In this document: in pieces, positions 3,043-39,156 of the stretch
Numbering within the stretch: the first letter of the stretch is position 1
Layout: each line of letters begins with the position of its first letter
Position numbers and translations under genes: made by a program
Notes under the pieces: model-generated
The model's database searches: none
What the model saw: only the letters and a program-made list of their open reading frames with translations
What the model was told of the DNA's origin: nothing
Source of the DNA: a virus
Taxonomy: Duplodnaviria > Heunggongvirae > Uroviricota > Caudoviricetes
IMG/VR virus record: IMGVR_UViG_2627853794_000002
Location: 1 to 40,524 of that record
Direction: 5' to 3' (one strand)
DNA: 40,524 bases

Positions 3043-3366
3043 ATGTCTGCCGCTGCACTTGTCATTAACGGTAATACGTTGACAGCAAAAATCCCGGTAG
3101 TTATTAACGGCGTTAACAGGGAGTTTATTATTCAGGCATCTCAGATATCCAGCTCAGCAAGCAATGGTGTTATTACCTTCCCATCCGCATTTCCAAATGC
3201 GTGTATTGCGATTTTTGCGCATGACTTTGCGACAGCGTCTACGGATTTATCGAATGTTCGGTTCTATATGCCAGGAAGAACATCAGCATCATGGACAGGG
3301 CAAAATATGAGTACAGGCAGTGAATCATCACCTGCAACATGGTGTTGGCTGGCAATTGGCTGGTAA
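3022..3366 (+). CDS. Alternative tail-fibre C-terminal cassette (silent in this orientation)
   Basis: ORF 2983-3366 shares GLGEAAK with the expressed fibre at the crossover site; no own start downstream of site; would fuse to fibre N-terminus after inversion. Confidence 0.55.
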   Translation, partial: GLGEAAKMSAAALVINGNTLTAKIPVVINGVNREFIIQASQISSSASNGVITFPSAFPNACIAIFAHDFATASTDLSNVRFYMPGRTSASWTGQNMSTGSESSPATWCWLAIGW

Positions 3367-3786
3367 ATGGAGAAAACAATGAAATATTTTACATCTGCTC
3401 CGATTGCTCTTTATAACTCCGATATATCCTCTTATATACCCGGTGACGCAGTAGAAATCAGTGATGAAGTATATGACGCACTTATTGCTGGTCAGGAGGC
3501 AGGAAAGAATATTACGGCAGACAGTAACGGACTGCCTGTACTGGCAGAACCCGCACAACCAACTCATGATGAATTGGTTGCAGCATCTGAATTAATGAAA
3601 CAGCATCTGATTGATGCTGCTATGGCTTCCATCAGTCTGATTCAGCTGAAATTGCAGGCCGGACGTAAATTGACGCAGGCAGAAACAACCCGGCTTAACG
3701 CTGTGCTGGATTACATTGACGCAGTGACGGCAACAGATACCAGCACCGCGCCGGATGTCATCTGGCCTGAACTGCCGGAGGCGTAG
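3367..3786 (+). CDS. Tail fibre assembly protein (alternate-orientation copy, Tfa family)
   Basis: 139 aa; C-terminal ...APDVIWPELPEA typical of Tfa chaperones; follows silent fibre cassette. Confidence 0.7.
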   Translation: MEKTMKYFTSAPIALYNSDISSYIPGDAVEISDEVYDALIAGQEAGKNITADSNGLPVLAEPAQPTHDELVAASELMKQHLIDAAMASISLIQLKLQAGRKLTQAETTRLNAVLDYIDAVTATDTSTAPDVIWPELPEA

Positions 3787-23659: not shown

Positions 23660-23875
23660 TTACTCTCCCCGTGCAGCCTTACGCTTGTCTTCTCTGATTT
23701 TGAAGTACAGATTTGTCAGATAAGTCAGGAAGCCCAGAACCAGACTCCCCAGTACACCAATCGCAGCCCACTGTGACGGACTGACCTGATCAAGCCACTG
23801 TAAAAACCAGTAGCCAGCACTGCCTGCGGAGGTGCCGTAGGCAATGCCCGTTGAAATTTTGTCCATGGATTTCAT
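23660..23875 (-). CDS. Pinholin (phage 21 S21-like) with dual-start motif MKSM
   Basis: 71 aa; [59 protein letters not shown]... matches S21 as recalled. Confidence 0.85.
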
Positions 23876-24035
23876 AGCCTCACCTCCGCAAATAACGGAT
23901 GGCGTAGTTTTACACTGAGAAATGAAAGGGATTTGAAAAGAAAAAACCGCAAAAGCGGGCGAAACGATATATACGGAAAGGAAAGCACTCTATCCAACAA
24001 ACCACCCACAGTTAATCGGAATAAAAGCAGAGTGC

Positions 24036-24108
24036 TTATGAATGATCGCCTGCCCGAAGGTTAGTATTTCTGCACAGCAATTTTGCAAAAAAAGGCGATC
24101 ATTCATAA
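24036..24108. repeat. Perfect 15-bp inverted repeat with 43-bp spacer
   Basis: ttatgaatgatcgcc (24036-24050) and ggcgatcattcataa (24094-24108). Confidence 0.6.
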
Positions 24109-24115
24109 CTTAAAC

Positions 24116-24161
24116 GTCTTTCAGTCACTCCGGGATTTCCCATCATCGCAGACTGAAAGAC
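24116..24161. repeat. 11-bp inverted repeat hairpin just downstream of tRNA array
   Basis: gtctttcagtc (24116-24126) and gactgaaagac (24151-24161), 24-nt spacer, 6 nt from tRNA-Gly 3' end. Confidence 0.5.
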
Positions 24162-24167
24162 TCTAAC

Positions 24168-24242
<75 letters not shown>

Positions 24243-24245
24243 ATA

Positions 24246-24321
<76 letters not shown>

Positions 24322-24323
24322 AC

Positions 24324-24400
24324 TGGACCGCCACCGGGGACTCGAACCTCGCACACTCAACTTAAAGGGTTGACGCTCTTTCCTGATGAGCTAGTGGCGG
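24324..24400 (-). tRNA. Atypical tRNA, anticodon UUU (Lys?) with C33
   Basis: 77 nt; perfect 7-bp acceptor stem CCGCCAC/GTGGCGG, anticodon stem TCAAC/GTTGA, loop CCUUUAA, T-loop TTCGAGT with one A-C mismatch in T stem; CCA encoded. Confidence 0.55.
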
Positions 24401-24401
24401 C

Positions 24402-24477
24402 TGGTGGCCCTTGCTGGATTTGAACCAGCGACCTGGCGATTATGAGTCGCTCGCTCTCACCACTGAGCTAAAGGGCC
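24402..24477 (-). tRNA. tRNA with anticodon CAU, most similar to tRNA-Ile2 (ileX/ileY-like) rather than elongator Met
   Basis: 76 nt; loop CUCAUAA; acceptor GGCCCTT/AAGGGCC; CCA encoded. Confidence 0.75.
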
Positions 24478-24580
24478 GGGCGCAGGATAATAACGTTACG
24501 AAATCAATGTTGCAAGCATTCAAAAATCCCCCTTATCTCCTCCACCAGCGCATTCACCATGTCTATCCGAGATAAGTGGC

Positions 24581-24606
24581 ACAAAAAACCCGCTTGTGGG
24601 CGGGTT
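24581..24606 (-). terminator. Intrinsic terminator (tR'-like) between late promoter and tRNA array
   Basis: Minus strand: stem aacccgc/gcgggtt followed by TTTTTTG. Confidence 0.55.
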
Positions 24607-24659
24607 TTGTTTGCTTTTGCCATCACGTACAAAATCGGCAAAATATCAGATTTGCATGA

Positions 24660-24688
24660 AATATATGCCTTTCAATCTACTTTTGCAA
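24660..24688 (-). promoter_or_regulatory. Candidate late promoter (pR'-like), sigma70 type
   Basis: Minus strand TTGCAA - 17 nt - TATATT overlapping 3' end of Q-like gene; ~50 nt upstream of terminator. Confidence 0.4.
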
Positions 24689-25361
24689 CACTTTGCTTTG
24701 AAAATGCCACCTTTTGTTTTGAACGTGTTCTCATTACAAACAATAAAGCCTCACTATCAAGTCGGTGAAAAATGTGTTTCATTGCAACCCAGTGACGAGT
24801 AAATGTTTTGGACCAGTTTTTAGTTGTCACTCCCGCCAGTAATGCCAGCTCCTGGTATTCATAACCTTCCCCACCAAAAAGTTCTGCTTTTACTGCCTGC
24901 GCCGCCAGCCAGATTAATTTTTTCAGGCGTTCCTGCGTTTTCCCTGCAATTTTTCTGGTACCGGATTGAGTATTAAATTCATTCCACGCCCACTGTGTTA
25001 TCGCGATCTGATATTCCCAACAAATACTCCCGCTGTAACACCACAACAACCAGGCTTTATGATGTTCTTCAAGAGACAGAACTGCCCGTCGCCATGATGA
25101 TGTCGAAAACTCAACCTGACTTACCAGAGCAATTGATGAGCCTTTCGCCAGTGATTGTTTTCCCGGTATCGGTGGACTATCCCGCGTTATCATTCTTCCA
25201 GTCACTTCATCGCGGTACCGGATTTTTTTACGCCTGTAACGCCCTGTATCAAACATGGCATTCTCCTGCCAGGCTTCAAGCTGGCCTTTCGTTGCTCCGC
25301 TCAAATCAGCGGTAGCCACAATGAGTTGCTCGCGGACATACTGTAAATATTGGGTATTCAT
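24672..25361 (-). CDS. Putative late-gene antiterminator (Q-like by position); family not recognised
   Basis: 229 aa; located between rusA and late promoter/terminator/lysis genes as Q is in lambdoid phages; no recognisable zinc finger. Confidence 0.4.
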   Translation of the reverse strand: MNTQYLQYVREQLIVATADLSGATKGQLEAWQENAMFDTGRYRRKKIRYRDEVTGRMITRDSPPIPGKQSLAKGSSIALVSQVEFSTSSWRRAVLSLEEHHKAWLLWCYSGSICWEYQIAITQWAWNEFNTQSGTRKIAGKTQERLKKLIWLAAQAVKAELFGGEGYEYQELALLAGVTTKNWSKTFTRHWVAMKHIFHRLDSEALLFVMRTRSKQKVAFSKQSVAKVD

Positions 25362-26762: not shown

Positions 26763-26953
26763 GATTCACCTCCGCAGAGGTCAAACGCTGGATGCAAAAA
26801 ATCGCAGGTACATTTCTGCATCTGTGAAGGGAGAAGAGAGTTTGGATTGTATGTGCGCATAAACGTCCCCGTTTAGCGCAGAAGTCACCGGAGTTGTTCA
26901 GGCTCCGGTGACTTAATTATGACAAGTTGATTATGGAAAATCAAAGCTTGTCA

Positions 26954-33473: not shown

Positions 33474-33896
33474 ATGGCAGAAGGGCGTCTAAAAACCGCG
33501 GGTAAAAACAGCCTGCCTTTTGCCATTACCAGTGTTCTTTGTGGTTACATTAACCACATGGTTCCTGAAATTTTTCCGGAAGGGGAAATGCGCCAATGGG
33601 CATATAGCACGATCCCAATGCTATCGCTGGTTTTACTGTACATTATTAGGACAATTAAAGATTTTGGAACTATGAGTCTGGCTCGTCTGGCTATTACTAT
33701 ATGTGCTACCCCAGAGAAAAAGCGCCTCAAACTCATAATGTCTGATAAGCATGTCAGTGAGGAAACAAAAGCTATAGCCGAGGCTCGTTATAATCAAATT
33801 ATTCAAAAAGAATTAGAAATAGGCTCCAATGCGGTTGATTATGTAGTAGGTATGCCAATTGTACATAATCAACCCAGACCAACAATTGATGAATAA
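33474..33896 (+). CDS. Hypothetical small membrane protein C (1-2 predicted TM helices)
   Basis: 140 aa; ggag RBS; start 2 nt after B stop; hydrophobic segment TIPMLSLVLLYIIRTI. Confidence 0.6.
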   Translation: MAEGRLKTAGKNSLPFAITSVLCGYINHMVPEIFPEGEMRQWAYSTIPMLSLVLLYIIRTIKDFGTMSLARLAITICATPEKKRLKLIMSDKHVSEETKAIAEARYNQIIQKELEIGSNAVDYVVGMPIVHNQPRPTIDE

Positions 33897-39080: not shown

Positions 39081-39156
39081 TGGTGCCGATAATAGGAGTC
39101 GAACCTACGACCTTCGCATTACGAATGCGCTGCTCTACCAACTGAGCTATATCGGC
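39081..39156 (-). tRNA. thrW: tRNA-Thr (anticodon CGU), intact; prophage attachment site
   Basis: 76 nt; minus strand GCCGATATAGCTCAGTTGGTAGAGCAGCGCATTCGTAATGCGAAGGTCGTAGGTTCGACTCCTATTATCGGCACCA; adjacent to proA as in E. coli. Confidence 0.9.

What the first reader, a model, noticed from the sequence alone, without database searches (positions are those of the whole stretch)
24036..24161. Perfect 15-bp inverted repeat with 43-bp spacer plus a second 11-bp hairpin between the tRNA array and the holin gene
Seen: ttatgaatgatcgcc (24036-24050) and ggcgatcattcataa (24094-24108) are exact reverse complements; a further 11-bp inverted repeat (24116-24126 / 24151-24161) lies 6 nt from the tRNA-Gly 3' end. 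No ORF explains them. Inference: possible RNA processing or termination structures for the tRNA precursor, a protein-binding palindrome controlling lysis-gene expression, or the scar of a small inserted element.
Basis: seen in the sequence. Interest (0 to 1): 0.4.

Follow-up and report, generated by a model that had tools for sequence, protein, structure and literature searches.

The report
Conserved RNA hairpins trailing phage tRNAs
The two inverted repeats are real and are part of a conserved, unannotated, three-hairpin RNA that follows the tRNA gene cluster of a lambda-like prophage just upstream of its lysis genes; it is found in about one in ten E. coli genomes, and its function is still unknown.

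Summary
The large repeat is a perfect 16-bp pair (24036-24051 / 24093-24108, 41-nt spacer). The 11-bp pair lies 6 nt from the tRNA-Gly 3' end. A third hairpin (H3, about 23984-24036) and a terminator-like hairpin with a U tract (about 23935-23960) follow.

All of these lie on the minus strand, the sense strand of Q, the tRNA array (Met-Lys-Thr-Gly) and the S21-type holin.

In relatives from E. coli, Shigella, Enterobacter, Citrobacter, Yokenella and Phytobacter prophages (including HK639 and Stx2f phage phi467) the stems are kept through compensatory changes. 98% of cells are paired, against 36-50% in slid controls. G·U pairs outnumber A·C pairs 174 to 8, so the structure is RNA on the sense strand, not a DNA palindrome.

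A sigma-70 promoter with conserved hexamers sits just upstream of the first tRNA. The array plus trailer therefore looks like a self-contained unit inside the late operon.

H2-H3 is the constant core. H1 is optional and resembles a decayed partial copy of tRNA-Gly.

No Rfam family and none of the Pas sRNAs (PasA-D) matches.

Best reading: a structured tRNA-operon 3' trailer, probably released as a stable non-coding RNA. It is a new member of a known kind and of moderate interest.

The parts
24672..25361 (-). Late antiterminator gene Q (229 aa)
   Evidence: Pfam PF06323 Phage_antiter_Q, E=3e-90; ORF list
24660..24688 (-). Late promoter pR'-like site (TTGCAA-17-TATATT) at the end of Q
   Evidence: Consensus scan; position relative to Q and to the terminator below. 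Function is inferred.
24585..24608 (-). tR'-like intrinsic terminator ending the short pR' leader. The leader at 24583-24656 gives weak isrK/isrJ-like Rfam matches.
   Evidence: Terminator scan, 10-pair stem plus T run; Rfam sub-threshold hits isrJ 24.5 bits and isrK 22.7 bits
24487..24515 (-). Sigma-70 promoter-like site (TTGCAA-17-TATTAT, G+C-rich discriminator) 9 nt upstream of tRNA-Met
   Evidence: Scan. The -35 TTGCR and -10 TATYAT hexamers are kept at the same distance from the first tRNA in many loci whose spacer and upstream sequence differ.
24168..24477 (-). tRNA array Met(CAU)-Lys(UUU)-Thr(UGU)-Gly(UCC)
   Evidence: ARAGORN; Rfam tRNA scores 72.5, 44.4, 73.8 and 64.9 bits. tRNA-Gly is at least 99% identical to a core E. 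coli tRNA-Gly gene found in 5420 of 5426 genomes.
24110..24167 (-). H1: 11-bp stem (24161-24151 with 24126-24116), conserved internal loop UGCGAUGAU / GGAGU, and an inner GGG-loop-CCC hairpin. Optional module, probably a decayed partial copy of tRNA-Gly.
   Evidence: fold. Alignment A4: 96.8% of cells paired against 35-59% in slid controls, and 3 pairs changed on both sides. Absent in L144, L152, L153, L165, L166, L194, L207 and L212. Similarity to tRNA-Gly.
24037..24108 (-). H2: 15-16-bp outer stem (the 16-bp perfect inverted repeat) enclosing an 8-bp inner hairpin with a conserved 9-nt loop AAAUUGCUG, plus a small CC-UUCG-GG hairpin
   Evidence: Alignment A3: helix 1 is 98.6% paired with 5 pairs changed on both sides; helix 2 is 99.3% paired. 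Covariance model R1 hit at 23980-24109, minus strand, 138.6 bits.
23984..24036 (-). H3: 53-nt hairpin abutting H2 with no linker. It has an outer 8-9-bp stem, inner UCCGA/UUGGA and AACY/GGUU helices, and the invariant GGGUGGUUUGUUGG.
   Evidence: Helix 5 has 4 of 5 pairs changed on both sides and is 99.5% paired.
23935..23960 (-). Terminator-like hairpin (CCGC-UUUU-GCGG) plus UUUUUUCUUUU, preceded by a roughly 25-nt unpaired U/A-rich linker (23961-23983)
   Evidence: Sequence and fold. The window copy has only 4 pairs and is not called by the scan. Relatives have GCCCGC/GCGGGC or different G+C-rich stems at the same place. HK639 annotates a terminator there.
23660..23875 (-). Class II (S21-type) holin, first gene of the lysis cassette
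   Evidence: Pfam PF04971, E=1.4e-35. Followed by DUF1327 and a lysozyme.

Best explanation
The two inverted repeats are hairpins H1 and H2 of a roughly 230-nt structured non-coding RNA (H1-H2-H3, linker, terminator). This RNA is the 3' trailer of a phage-borne tRNA operon embedded between Q/pR' and the lysis cassette of a lambdoid prophage. Shown: the structure exists at the RNA level, on the sense strand, and is under selection. H2-H3 is the constant core that follows a tRNA-Gly(UCC)-type gene across Enterobacteriaceae prophages. A promoter with conserved hexamers precedes the array, and a terminator-like hairpin with a U tract follows H3. Inferred: the unit is transcribed from its own promoter in lysogens, and by Q-modified polymerase from pR' during lytic growth. 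RNase P and RNase E (AG|UU motifs directly after the CCA end and again before H2) release the tRNAs. The trailer is left as a stable, end-protected RNA, with a hairpin near its 5' end and a terminator hairpin at its 3' end. It then acts in trans through its invariant exposed segments (AAAUUGCUG loop, GGGUGGUUUGUUGG region), in the manner of a tRNA-trailer (3'ETS-type) or prophage sRNA. At the same time, its terminator keeps the constitutive tRNA promoter from reading into the holin gene. H1 is an optional add-on that most likely arose from a partial duplicate of tRNA-Gly and was remodelled into a hairpin.
For: Anatomy and context. Fold of the sense RNA: -78.7 kcal/mol, z = -4.87, three adjacent hairpins, then an unpaired linker and a terminator hairpin. 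Conservation: found in 535 of 5426 complete E. coli genomes and never annotated; in phages phi467, 606R7, 689R5, PhiR47_1 and, at 76% identity, HK639; in species-representative genomes of six genera: Escherichia, Shigella, Enterobacter, Citrobacter, Yokenella and Phytobacter. Covariation in H2-H3: 98.3% of 1552 cells paired against 36-50% with slid partners; 11 pairs changed on both sides; 0 of 500 shuffles reach the observed percentage paired or covariation score. Covariation in H1: 96.8% paired against 35-59%. Strand: 174 G·U cells against 8 A·C cells. The covariance model scores 138.6 bits on the minus strand, against 14-20 bits for the antisense hits reported in six related loci. Promoter hexamers are conserved upstream of the first tRNA across divergent flanks. 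A terminator is annotated or recognisable at the same position, with different stems, in relatives. The Q-to-holin interval of HK639 also carries a bona fide STnc100 sRNA copy just downstream (52.6 bits against a 47-bit gathering score). This shows that the interval is a site where small terminated RNA genes accumulate.
Against: There is no expression, processing or binding data for this RNA, and no target is known. The window's own terminator stem has only 4 pairs and fails the scan. In one relative (L038) H2 keeps a long covarying stem but has a different loop, which suggests the stem rather than the loop sequence may be what matters. Most compensatory changes separate two clades (window type and HK639 type), so the number of independent events is limited. 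The apparent invariance of the H1 internal loop is partly due to the search pattern used. Arrays that start with tRNA-Thr (the arrangement annotated in Stx2f phage phi467) lack the recognisable promoter.
Confidence: 0.55

Rival explanations
1. A purely cis-acting RNA element. The hairpins serve the transcript they sit in. They could be double-stranded processing sites (for example RNase III on the 16-bp H2 stem, possibly stacked on H3) or 5'/3' protective structures. Such structures would uncouple tRNA maturation from the downstream lysis mRNA, stabilise the tRNA precursor or the lysis message, and help insulate the holin from the upstream tRNA promoter. No trans-acting product would be involved.
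For: The element lies between a promoter-driven tRNA array and lethal lysis genes. H2 and H3 abut without a linker in all relatives. In L038 the long H2 stem is kept by many compensatory changes while the loop is replaced. HK639-type loci carry two to four successive terminators before the holin.
Against: The loop and bulge sequences (GCAAAAUUGCUGUG; GGGUGGUUUGUUGG) are nearly invariant across about 25% overall divergence, which goes beyond what a generic stem requires. The terminator alone would suffice for insulation. The 16-bp stem is shorter than typical RNase III substrates (general knowledge, not tested).
Confidence: 0.27
2. An evolutionary relic without function. H1 (and perhaps H2 and H3) would be decaying tRNA duplicates, or the leftover partial tRNA copy (attR-like) of a lost element that had integrated into tRNA-Gly. 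The palindromes would be kept perfect by templated (quasi-palindrome) mutation rather than by selection.
For: H1 is optional. It is flanked by AGTTA/AGTTT direct repeats. It aligns co-linearly with tRNA-Gly from the anticodon stem to the T arm (Smith-Waterman against shuffles, p about 0.002-0.08 depending on the variant). MAFFT places the tRNA-Gly 3' part of H1-less loci onto H1. L009 shows a deletion between the two CAGYCT segments.
Against: H2 and H3 show no similarity to tRNA-Gly (p about 0.8), and ARAGORN and the Rfam tRNA model do not match them. One-sided changes are G·U rather than A·C (174 against 8), which a DNA-level templating process would not produce. H1 is not a dispersed repeat: the collection scan found it only in this context. 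The core is retained across six genera.
Confidence: 0.12
3. A DNA-level palindrome: an operator for a regulator of the lysis genes, or a cruciform or recombination site.
For: A perfect 16-bp inverted repeat lies immediately upstream of the lysis cassette.
Against: The strand-asymmetric G·U pattern. The 41-nt and 24-nt spacers contain their own conserved hairpins. The arm sequences differ between clades while pairing is kept, whereas a protein site would keep the sequence. The covariance model scores strongly on one strand only.
Confidence: 0.03

Closest known systems
3'ETS-leuZ type tRNA-trailer sRNA of E. coli (glyW-cysT-leuZ operon; Lalaouna et al. 2015, recalled from memory)
   Same: It lies directly 3' of the last tRNA of a polycistronic tRNA operon, ends at the operon's intrinsic terminator, and has A/U-rich RNase E-type motifs right after the CCA end.
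   Different: It is about four times longer and far more structured (three long hairpins). It is phage-borne and shares no sequence similarity. Release, Hfq binding and sponge activity are untested here.
Prophage sRNAs of the Q-to-lysis interval of lambdoid phages: STnc100/PasD, PasA/PasC, AgvB, AsxR, Esr41, IsrK (Rfam families; Pearl Mizrahi 2021 PMC8550237; Zhu et al. 2026 bioRxiv 10.64898/2026.05.13.724894)
   Same: The same genomic niche (between Q and the holin, often next to tRNA genes), ending in a terminator, and horizontally spread among E. coli prophages. In HK639 an STnc100 copy lies directly downstream of this element.
   Different: No Rfam model matches, even at E<=10. The four Pas probes are absent from the window. 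The three Pas loci of E2348/69 that were fetched (PasB, PasA/PasD2, PasC; the PasD1 locus was not fetched) are not hit by the covariance model. PasA is antisense to the late operon, whereas this RNA is sense.
Stable RNAs 'species 1' and 'species 2' (rnaD, rnaC) of the phage T4 tRNA cluster (recalled from memory)
   Same: Small structured RNAs of unknown function, co-transcribed with and processed from a phage tRNA gene cluster.
   Different: A different phage type (virulent myovirus). No sequence relationship was tested. The T4 RNAs lie within the cluster rather than forming a terminator-ended trailer before lysis genes.
Partial tRNA 3' copies left at the ends of elements integrated into tRNA genes (att repeats; Williams 2002, recalled from memory)
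   Same: H1 aligns with tRNA-Gly from the anticodon stem onward and is followed by the same AGTTW tail as the tRNA.
   Different: The two copies are adjacent with no element between them. H1 is strongly diverged and refolded into a hairpin whose pairs covary.

Membership tests
Rfam prophage sRNA families (STnc100 RF02076, AgvB RF02702, AsxR RF02703, Esr41 RF02676, isrK RF01394) and all other Rfam 15 families | Covariance-model score at or above the family's gathering threshold | tested here: not met
   No match in 23930-24167, even at E<=10. The same holds for the HK639 copy, apart from weak terminator-driven hits such as istR at 26 bits against a 45-bit threshold.
Pas sRNAs (PasA, PasB, PasC, PasD1/2) | Sequence identity to the E2348/69 genes and their Northern probes | tested here: not met
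   The four probes have no match with 6 or fewer substitutions anywhere in the window. The fetched E2348/69 loci L198-L201 (PasB, PasA/PasD2 and PasC regions plus one further novel-sRNA locus; the PasD1 locus was not fetched) give no hit with model R1.
Intrinsic (Rho-independent) terminator | G+C-rich hairpin immediately followed by a U tract | tested here: not met
   H1 and H2, the two repeats of the finding, are followed by GUUUAAGUUAU and GCACUCU, not by a U tract, and the scan does not call them. A separate hairpin plus U tract at about 23935-23960 fits by eye but has only 4 pairs here; relatives have 6 pairs or different stems.
tRNA-operon 3' trailer sRNA (3'ETS type) | Lies directly downstream of the last tRNA of a multi-tRNA transcription unit and upstream of that unit's terminator | tested here: met
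   tRNA-Gly ends at 24168. The trailer spans 24167-23935. The promoter is at 24515-24487 and is conserved in relatives.
tRNA-operon 3' trailer sRNA (3'ETS type) | Released as a stable RNA by RNase E and acts by base pairing, with Hfq dependence | not testable with these tools
   Only motifs are available: AG|UU after the CCA end and before H2, an unpaired U/A-rich linker, and a U tail.
Miniature inverted-repeat element or small insertion | Terminal inverted repeats, a target-site duplication, and multiple dispersed copies | tested here: not met
   H1 has inverted ends, a flanking AGTTA/AGTTT repeat, and is absent from some loci. However, the collection scan finds it only in this one context, and the 15-mer of H2 is unique in the window.
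tRNA or tRNA pseudogene | Cloverleaf recognised by ARAGORN or the Rfam tRNA model | tested here: not met
   No call for H1, H2 or H3. H1 shows only weak co-linear similarity to tRNA-Gly.
Self-cleaving ribozymes that flank phage tRNAs (HDV-like, hammerhead, twister and others in Rfam) | Match to the family's covariance model and catalytic core | tested here: not met
   No Rfam hit at E<=10. The GAUGA...GA motif of H1 lacks a stem I and the CUGAUGA/GAAA core when inspected by eye.
RNase III processing site | About two turns of double-stranded RNA cleaved by RNase III | tested here: inconclusive
   H2 offers 15-16 pairs and may stack on H3. Cleavage cannot be tested here.

The most novel reading that the evidence does not exclude
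The H2-H3 core is a new family of phage-encoded trans-acting RNA that is made as the trailer of a tRNA operon. Lysogens would produce it constitutively, and it would act on host RNAs or proteins through its invariant exposed segments. It might work as a sponge or decoy, possibly linked to the apparent counter-defence role of the adjacent tRNA array, whose second tRNA has a hypervariable anticodon loop.
Probability: 0.3. Interest if true: 0.6.

Novelty: new member of a known kind. Interest (0 to 1): 0.4.

Why it matters
About 10% of complete E. coli genomes, plus Shigella, Enterobacter, Citrobacter and other enterobacterial prophages including Stx2f-converting phages, carry this covariation-supported RNA. 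No annotation or Rfam family covers it.

It sits at a sensitive point, between a promoter-driven tRNA array and the holin gene. It could therefore influence tRNA supply, prophage-host RNA networks, or the tightness of lysis and toxin-release control.

It gives a concrete candidate for a new RNA family and a testable example of a phage tRNA-trailer RNA. It does not overturn any current view, because prophage Q-to-lysis intervals are already known to collect small RNA genes.

Tried and rejected
- **Rfam.** Searches at gathering and at permissive thresholds on the window and on the HK639 copy returned nothing for the element.
- **Pas sRNAs.** I checked the probes and coordinates from PMC8550237 table S6. 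The probes are absent from the window. The fetched Pas loci are in different contexts or orientations and are not hit by model R1. A local BLAST against those loci failed for a file reason and was replaced by the covariance-model search.
- **Literature.** Full-text searches for conserved sequence strings of the element found no paper. Searches on tRNA-trailer sponges in prophages and on HK639 gave nothing specific.
- **K-turn, box C/D or hammerhead reading of the H1 internal loop (GAUGA ... GA).** Rejected by inspection: the register does not fit a K-turn, and stem I and the core are missing.
- **HDV-like ribozyme directly after the tRNA.** No complementary P1 and no Rfam hit.
- **Similarity to GcvB (GGUCUGCGAU, UUUGCAA..UUG).** Noted from memory only. 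The order of the two segments is reversed, so I treated it as probable coincidence.
- **Coding potential.** The small overlapping ORFs are interrupted by 1-2-nt indels in relatives.
- **Non-enterobacterial hits of the genome scan (L209-L211, L213).** These are chance matches; model R1 finds nothing there.

Full report
**Observation**

The two inverted repeats are present as described. The larger one is one pair longer than reported: 24036-24051 and 24093-24108 are 16 nt and 100% complementary, with 41 nt between them. The smaller one is 24116-24126 with 24151-24161, 11 nt, with 24 nt between them.

ARAGORN and Rfam place four tRNA genes on the minus strand: Met 24402-24477, Lys 24324-24400, Thr 24246-24321 and Gly 24168-24242. 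The 11-bp repeat is therefore 6 nt from the 3' end of tRNA-Gly.

A perfect 16-bp inverted repeat is unlikely by chance. Only 2 of 200 Markov shuffles of the whole window reach 16 bp. The window holds five repeats of 11 bp or more, against 0.6 expected, and two of them are adjacent here. The 15-mer is not repeated elsewhere in the window.

**Context**

All genes around the site are on the minus strand. In reading order they are:
- Q (24672-25361; PF06323, E=3e-90).
- A pR'-like promoter (24688-24660) and a strong terminator (24608-24585). The short leader between them weakly resembles isrK/isrJ.
- A second promoter-like site, TTGCAA-17-TATTAT (24515-24487), 9 nt before tRNA-Met.
- The four tRNAs.
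- The 290-nt interval that contains the finding.
- An S21-type class II holin (23875-23660; PF04971), then DUF1327, a lysozyme, Rz, HNH and terminase.

This is the late region of a lambdoid prophage.

**Anatomy on the sense strand**

I folded the 238 nt after tRNA-Gly as RNA. The result was -78.7 kcal/mol, with z = -4.87 against 200 shuffles. It forms three adjacent hairpins:
- H1 has the 11-bp stem, extendable by five weaker pairs, around an internal loop and a small GGG/CCC hairpin.
- H2 has the 15-16-bp stem around an 8-bp inner hairpin and a CC-UUCG-GG hairpin.
- H3 (about 23984-24036) starts at the nucleotide after H2.

A roughly 25-nt unpaired U/A-rich linker follows, and then CCGC-UUUU-GCGG with UUUUUUCUUUU. 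H1 and H2 are not followed by U tracts, so they are not terminators themselves. The scan tool does not call the downstream 4-pair hairpin, but relatives have stronger stems at the same place.

**Relatives**

The interval is 97-100% identical in most of the 535 (of 5426) complete E. coli genomes that contain it, and it is annotated in none of them. It is also found in phages phi467 (an Stx2f phage), vB_EcoM-606R7, vB_EcoS-689R5 and PhiR47_1. HK639 has a 76%-identical version between its Q-like gene and its holins.

Pattern scans of viral contigs and of species-representative genomes gave 74 distinct versions from viral contigs. They also gave copies in species-representative genomes of six genera: Escherichia, Shigella, Enterobacter, Citrobacter, Yokenella and Phytobacter. 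Hits outside Enterobacteriaceae were chance matches.

**Structure is selected, at the RNA level, on the sense strand**

On 37 distinct H2-H3 sequences, RNAalifold recovers the same hairpins. Of 1552 pair cells, 98.3% are standard pairs, against 36-50% when partners are slid by 1-3 columns. Eleven pairs change on both sides, for example UA/AU, GC/UA and UA/CG in H2, and UA/CG, CG/UA and CG/UA in H3. No shuffle out of 500 reaches the observed pairing or covariation score.

H1 on 27 sequences gives 96.8% pairing against 35-59%, with three pairs changed on both sides.

One-sided changes are almost always G·U on this strand: 174 cells, against 8 A·C cells. A·C cells are what G·U pairs on the opposite strand would look like. 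A covariance model built from the alignment scores 138.6 bits on the minus strand of the window, and only 14-20 bits for antisense hits in related loci.

This rules out a duplex-DNA palindrome and identifies the transcribed strand as that of the tRNAs and late genes.

Two caveats apply. Most double changes separate two clades, so independent events are fewer than cells. The shuffle control does not correct for phylogeny.

**Modularity**

- H2-H3 is the constant core and follows a tRNA-Gly(UCC)-type gene or its remnant. The upstream tRNAs vary: Met-Lys-Thr, Met-Arg-Thr, Asn, Arg and others.
- H1 is missing from eight loci, where CCA-GUUUUGAAUG runs straight into H2.
- In one clade H3 is replaced (L003, L060).
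- In L038 a diverged H2 keeps a long stem through many compensatory changes but has another loop.
- Two loci (L125, L155) have lost the tRNAs and part of the H2 5' arm to an unrelated insertion.

**Origin of H1**

H1 and the short tail after it align co-linearly with tRNA-Gly from the anticodon stem to the T arm: AGCYTTYC..GATGATG(C)GGG..CCCG. Both the tRNA and H1 end in the same AGTTW tail. MAFFT aligns the tRNA 3' part of H1-less loci onto H1. One locus (L009) shows a deletion between the two CAGYCT segments. Smith-Waterman scores against shuffles give p of about 0.002 to 0.08, depending on the variant.

I take H1 to be a decayed partial duplicate of tRNA-Gly, possibly an att-type remnant, that was refolded into a hairpin. 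This is an inference and is only moderately supported. H2 and H3 show no such similarity.

**A self-contained transcription unit**

Upstream of the first tRNA, the hexamers TTGCR and TATYAT are kept 17 nt apart and 7-9 nt from the tRNA 5' end in dozens of loci. Their spacer and upstream sequences are otherwise unrelated. Together with the terminator after H3, the tRNA array plus trailer looks like a promoter-to-terminator unit set inside the late operon.

Without Q, its transcripts should stop before the holin. With Q, polymerase from pR' should read through. These steps are inferred.

**Comparison with known elements**

- No Rfam 15 family matches the element at E<=10, including AgvB, AsxR, Esr41, STnc100, isrK, tRNA and the ribozyme families.
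- The Pas sRNAs of EPEC occupy similar prophage niches. Their probes and the fetched loci do not match, and PasA is antisense to the late operon.
- In HK639 a genuine STnc100 copy lies just downstream of this element. The Q-to-holin interval is therefore a place where terminated small RNA genes accumulate.
- Full-text searches for the element's conserved strings found no paper.
- The nearest functional analogues are the 3'ETS-leuZ tRNA-trailer RNA of E. coli and the stable RNAs of the T4 tRNA cluster. Both comparisons rest on my own knowledge and are analogies of position and biogenesis, not of sequence.

**Verdict**

The finding is real and is more than a pair of hairpins. It is part of a conserved, unannotated structured RNA at the 3' end of a prophage tRNA operon.

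The most likely mechanism is release as a stable trailer RNA that acts in trans, with its terminator also insulating the lysis genes (confidence about 0.55). A purely cis-acting processing, stability or insulation role is the main rival (about 0.27). A functionless relic (about 0.12) and a DNA operator (about 0.03) are unlikely.

It is a new member of a known kind, either a prophage sRNA or a tRNA-trailer RNA. Interest is moderate at 0.4, because the element is widespread and sits next to lysis (and, in Stx2f phages, toxin) genes, but nothing about it contradicts current understanding.

Noticed in passing
window 24324-24400 (minus strand), and the second tRNA of the arrays in related loci (e.g. 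L010, L014, L024, L032): The second tRNA of the array shares one scaffold across loci but has a hypervariable anticodon loop. Versions include Lys-UUU with C instead of U at position 33 (the window; only 44 bits on the Rfam tRNA model), Arg-UCU, 'Phe-AAA', Leu-UAA, an ochre-suppressor-like UUA, and loops of non-standard length that ARAGORN cannot assign. This looks like diversification under pressure, for example from anticodon nucleases, or like decay.
   Followed up: partly
window 24487-24515 (minus strand): A sigma-70 promoter-like site with a G+C-rich discriminator lies directly upstream of tRNA-Met, inside the late operon. Its two hexamers are conserved in many relatives whose surrounding sequence differs, so the tRNA array is probably expressed independently of Q.
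   Followed up: partly
window 24583-24656 (minus strand): The short pR'-to-tR' leader gives sub-threshold Rfam matches to isrK and isrJ (Salmonella prophage leader sRNAs). It is probably the counterpart of the short pR' transcripts such as StxS and IsrK.
   Followed up: no
L001 (HK639) 3254-3459: An STnc100 copy above the Rfam gathering score (52.6 against 47 bits) lies immediately downstream of the HK639 version of this element, before the holins. It is not annotated in the phage record.
   Followed up: no
L001 (HK639) 2917-2988: The HK639 tRNA-Gly copy is degenerate (27.5 bits, below the 29-bit threshold, and missed by ARAGORN), with a 5' acceptor strand that no longer pairs. The trailer hairpins downstream are nonetheless intact.
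   Followed up: partly
L003 (E. coli NCTC 13148) 1029-1454: An HNH endonuclease gene is inserted between tRNA-Asn and the remnant 3' end of tRNA-Gly that precedes H1-H2. In this clade H3 is replaced by unrelated sequence.
   Followed up: no
window 23825-23834 with 23881-23890: A perfect 10-bp inverted repeat pairs the holin Shine-Dalgarno region (UGCGGAGGUG) with codons 14-17 of the holin gene. It could be a translation-control hairpin for the dual-start S21-type holin.
   Followed up: no
window 24168-24242: The phage tRNA-Gly(UCC) is at least 99% identical to a core E. coli tRNA-Gly gene present in 5420 of 5426 genomes. It is a host-type copy rather than a diverged phage tRNA.
   Followed up: yes
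window 33833-33874 and 26882-26914: Two other perfect inverted repeats (13 bp with a 16-nt loop, and 12 bp with a 9-nt loop) stand out against shuffles. I did not examine them.
   Followed up: no
window 39081-39156: A lone tRNA-Thr(CGU) lies on the minus strand near the end of the window. It may be the prophage attachment site.
   Followed up: no
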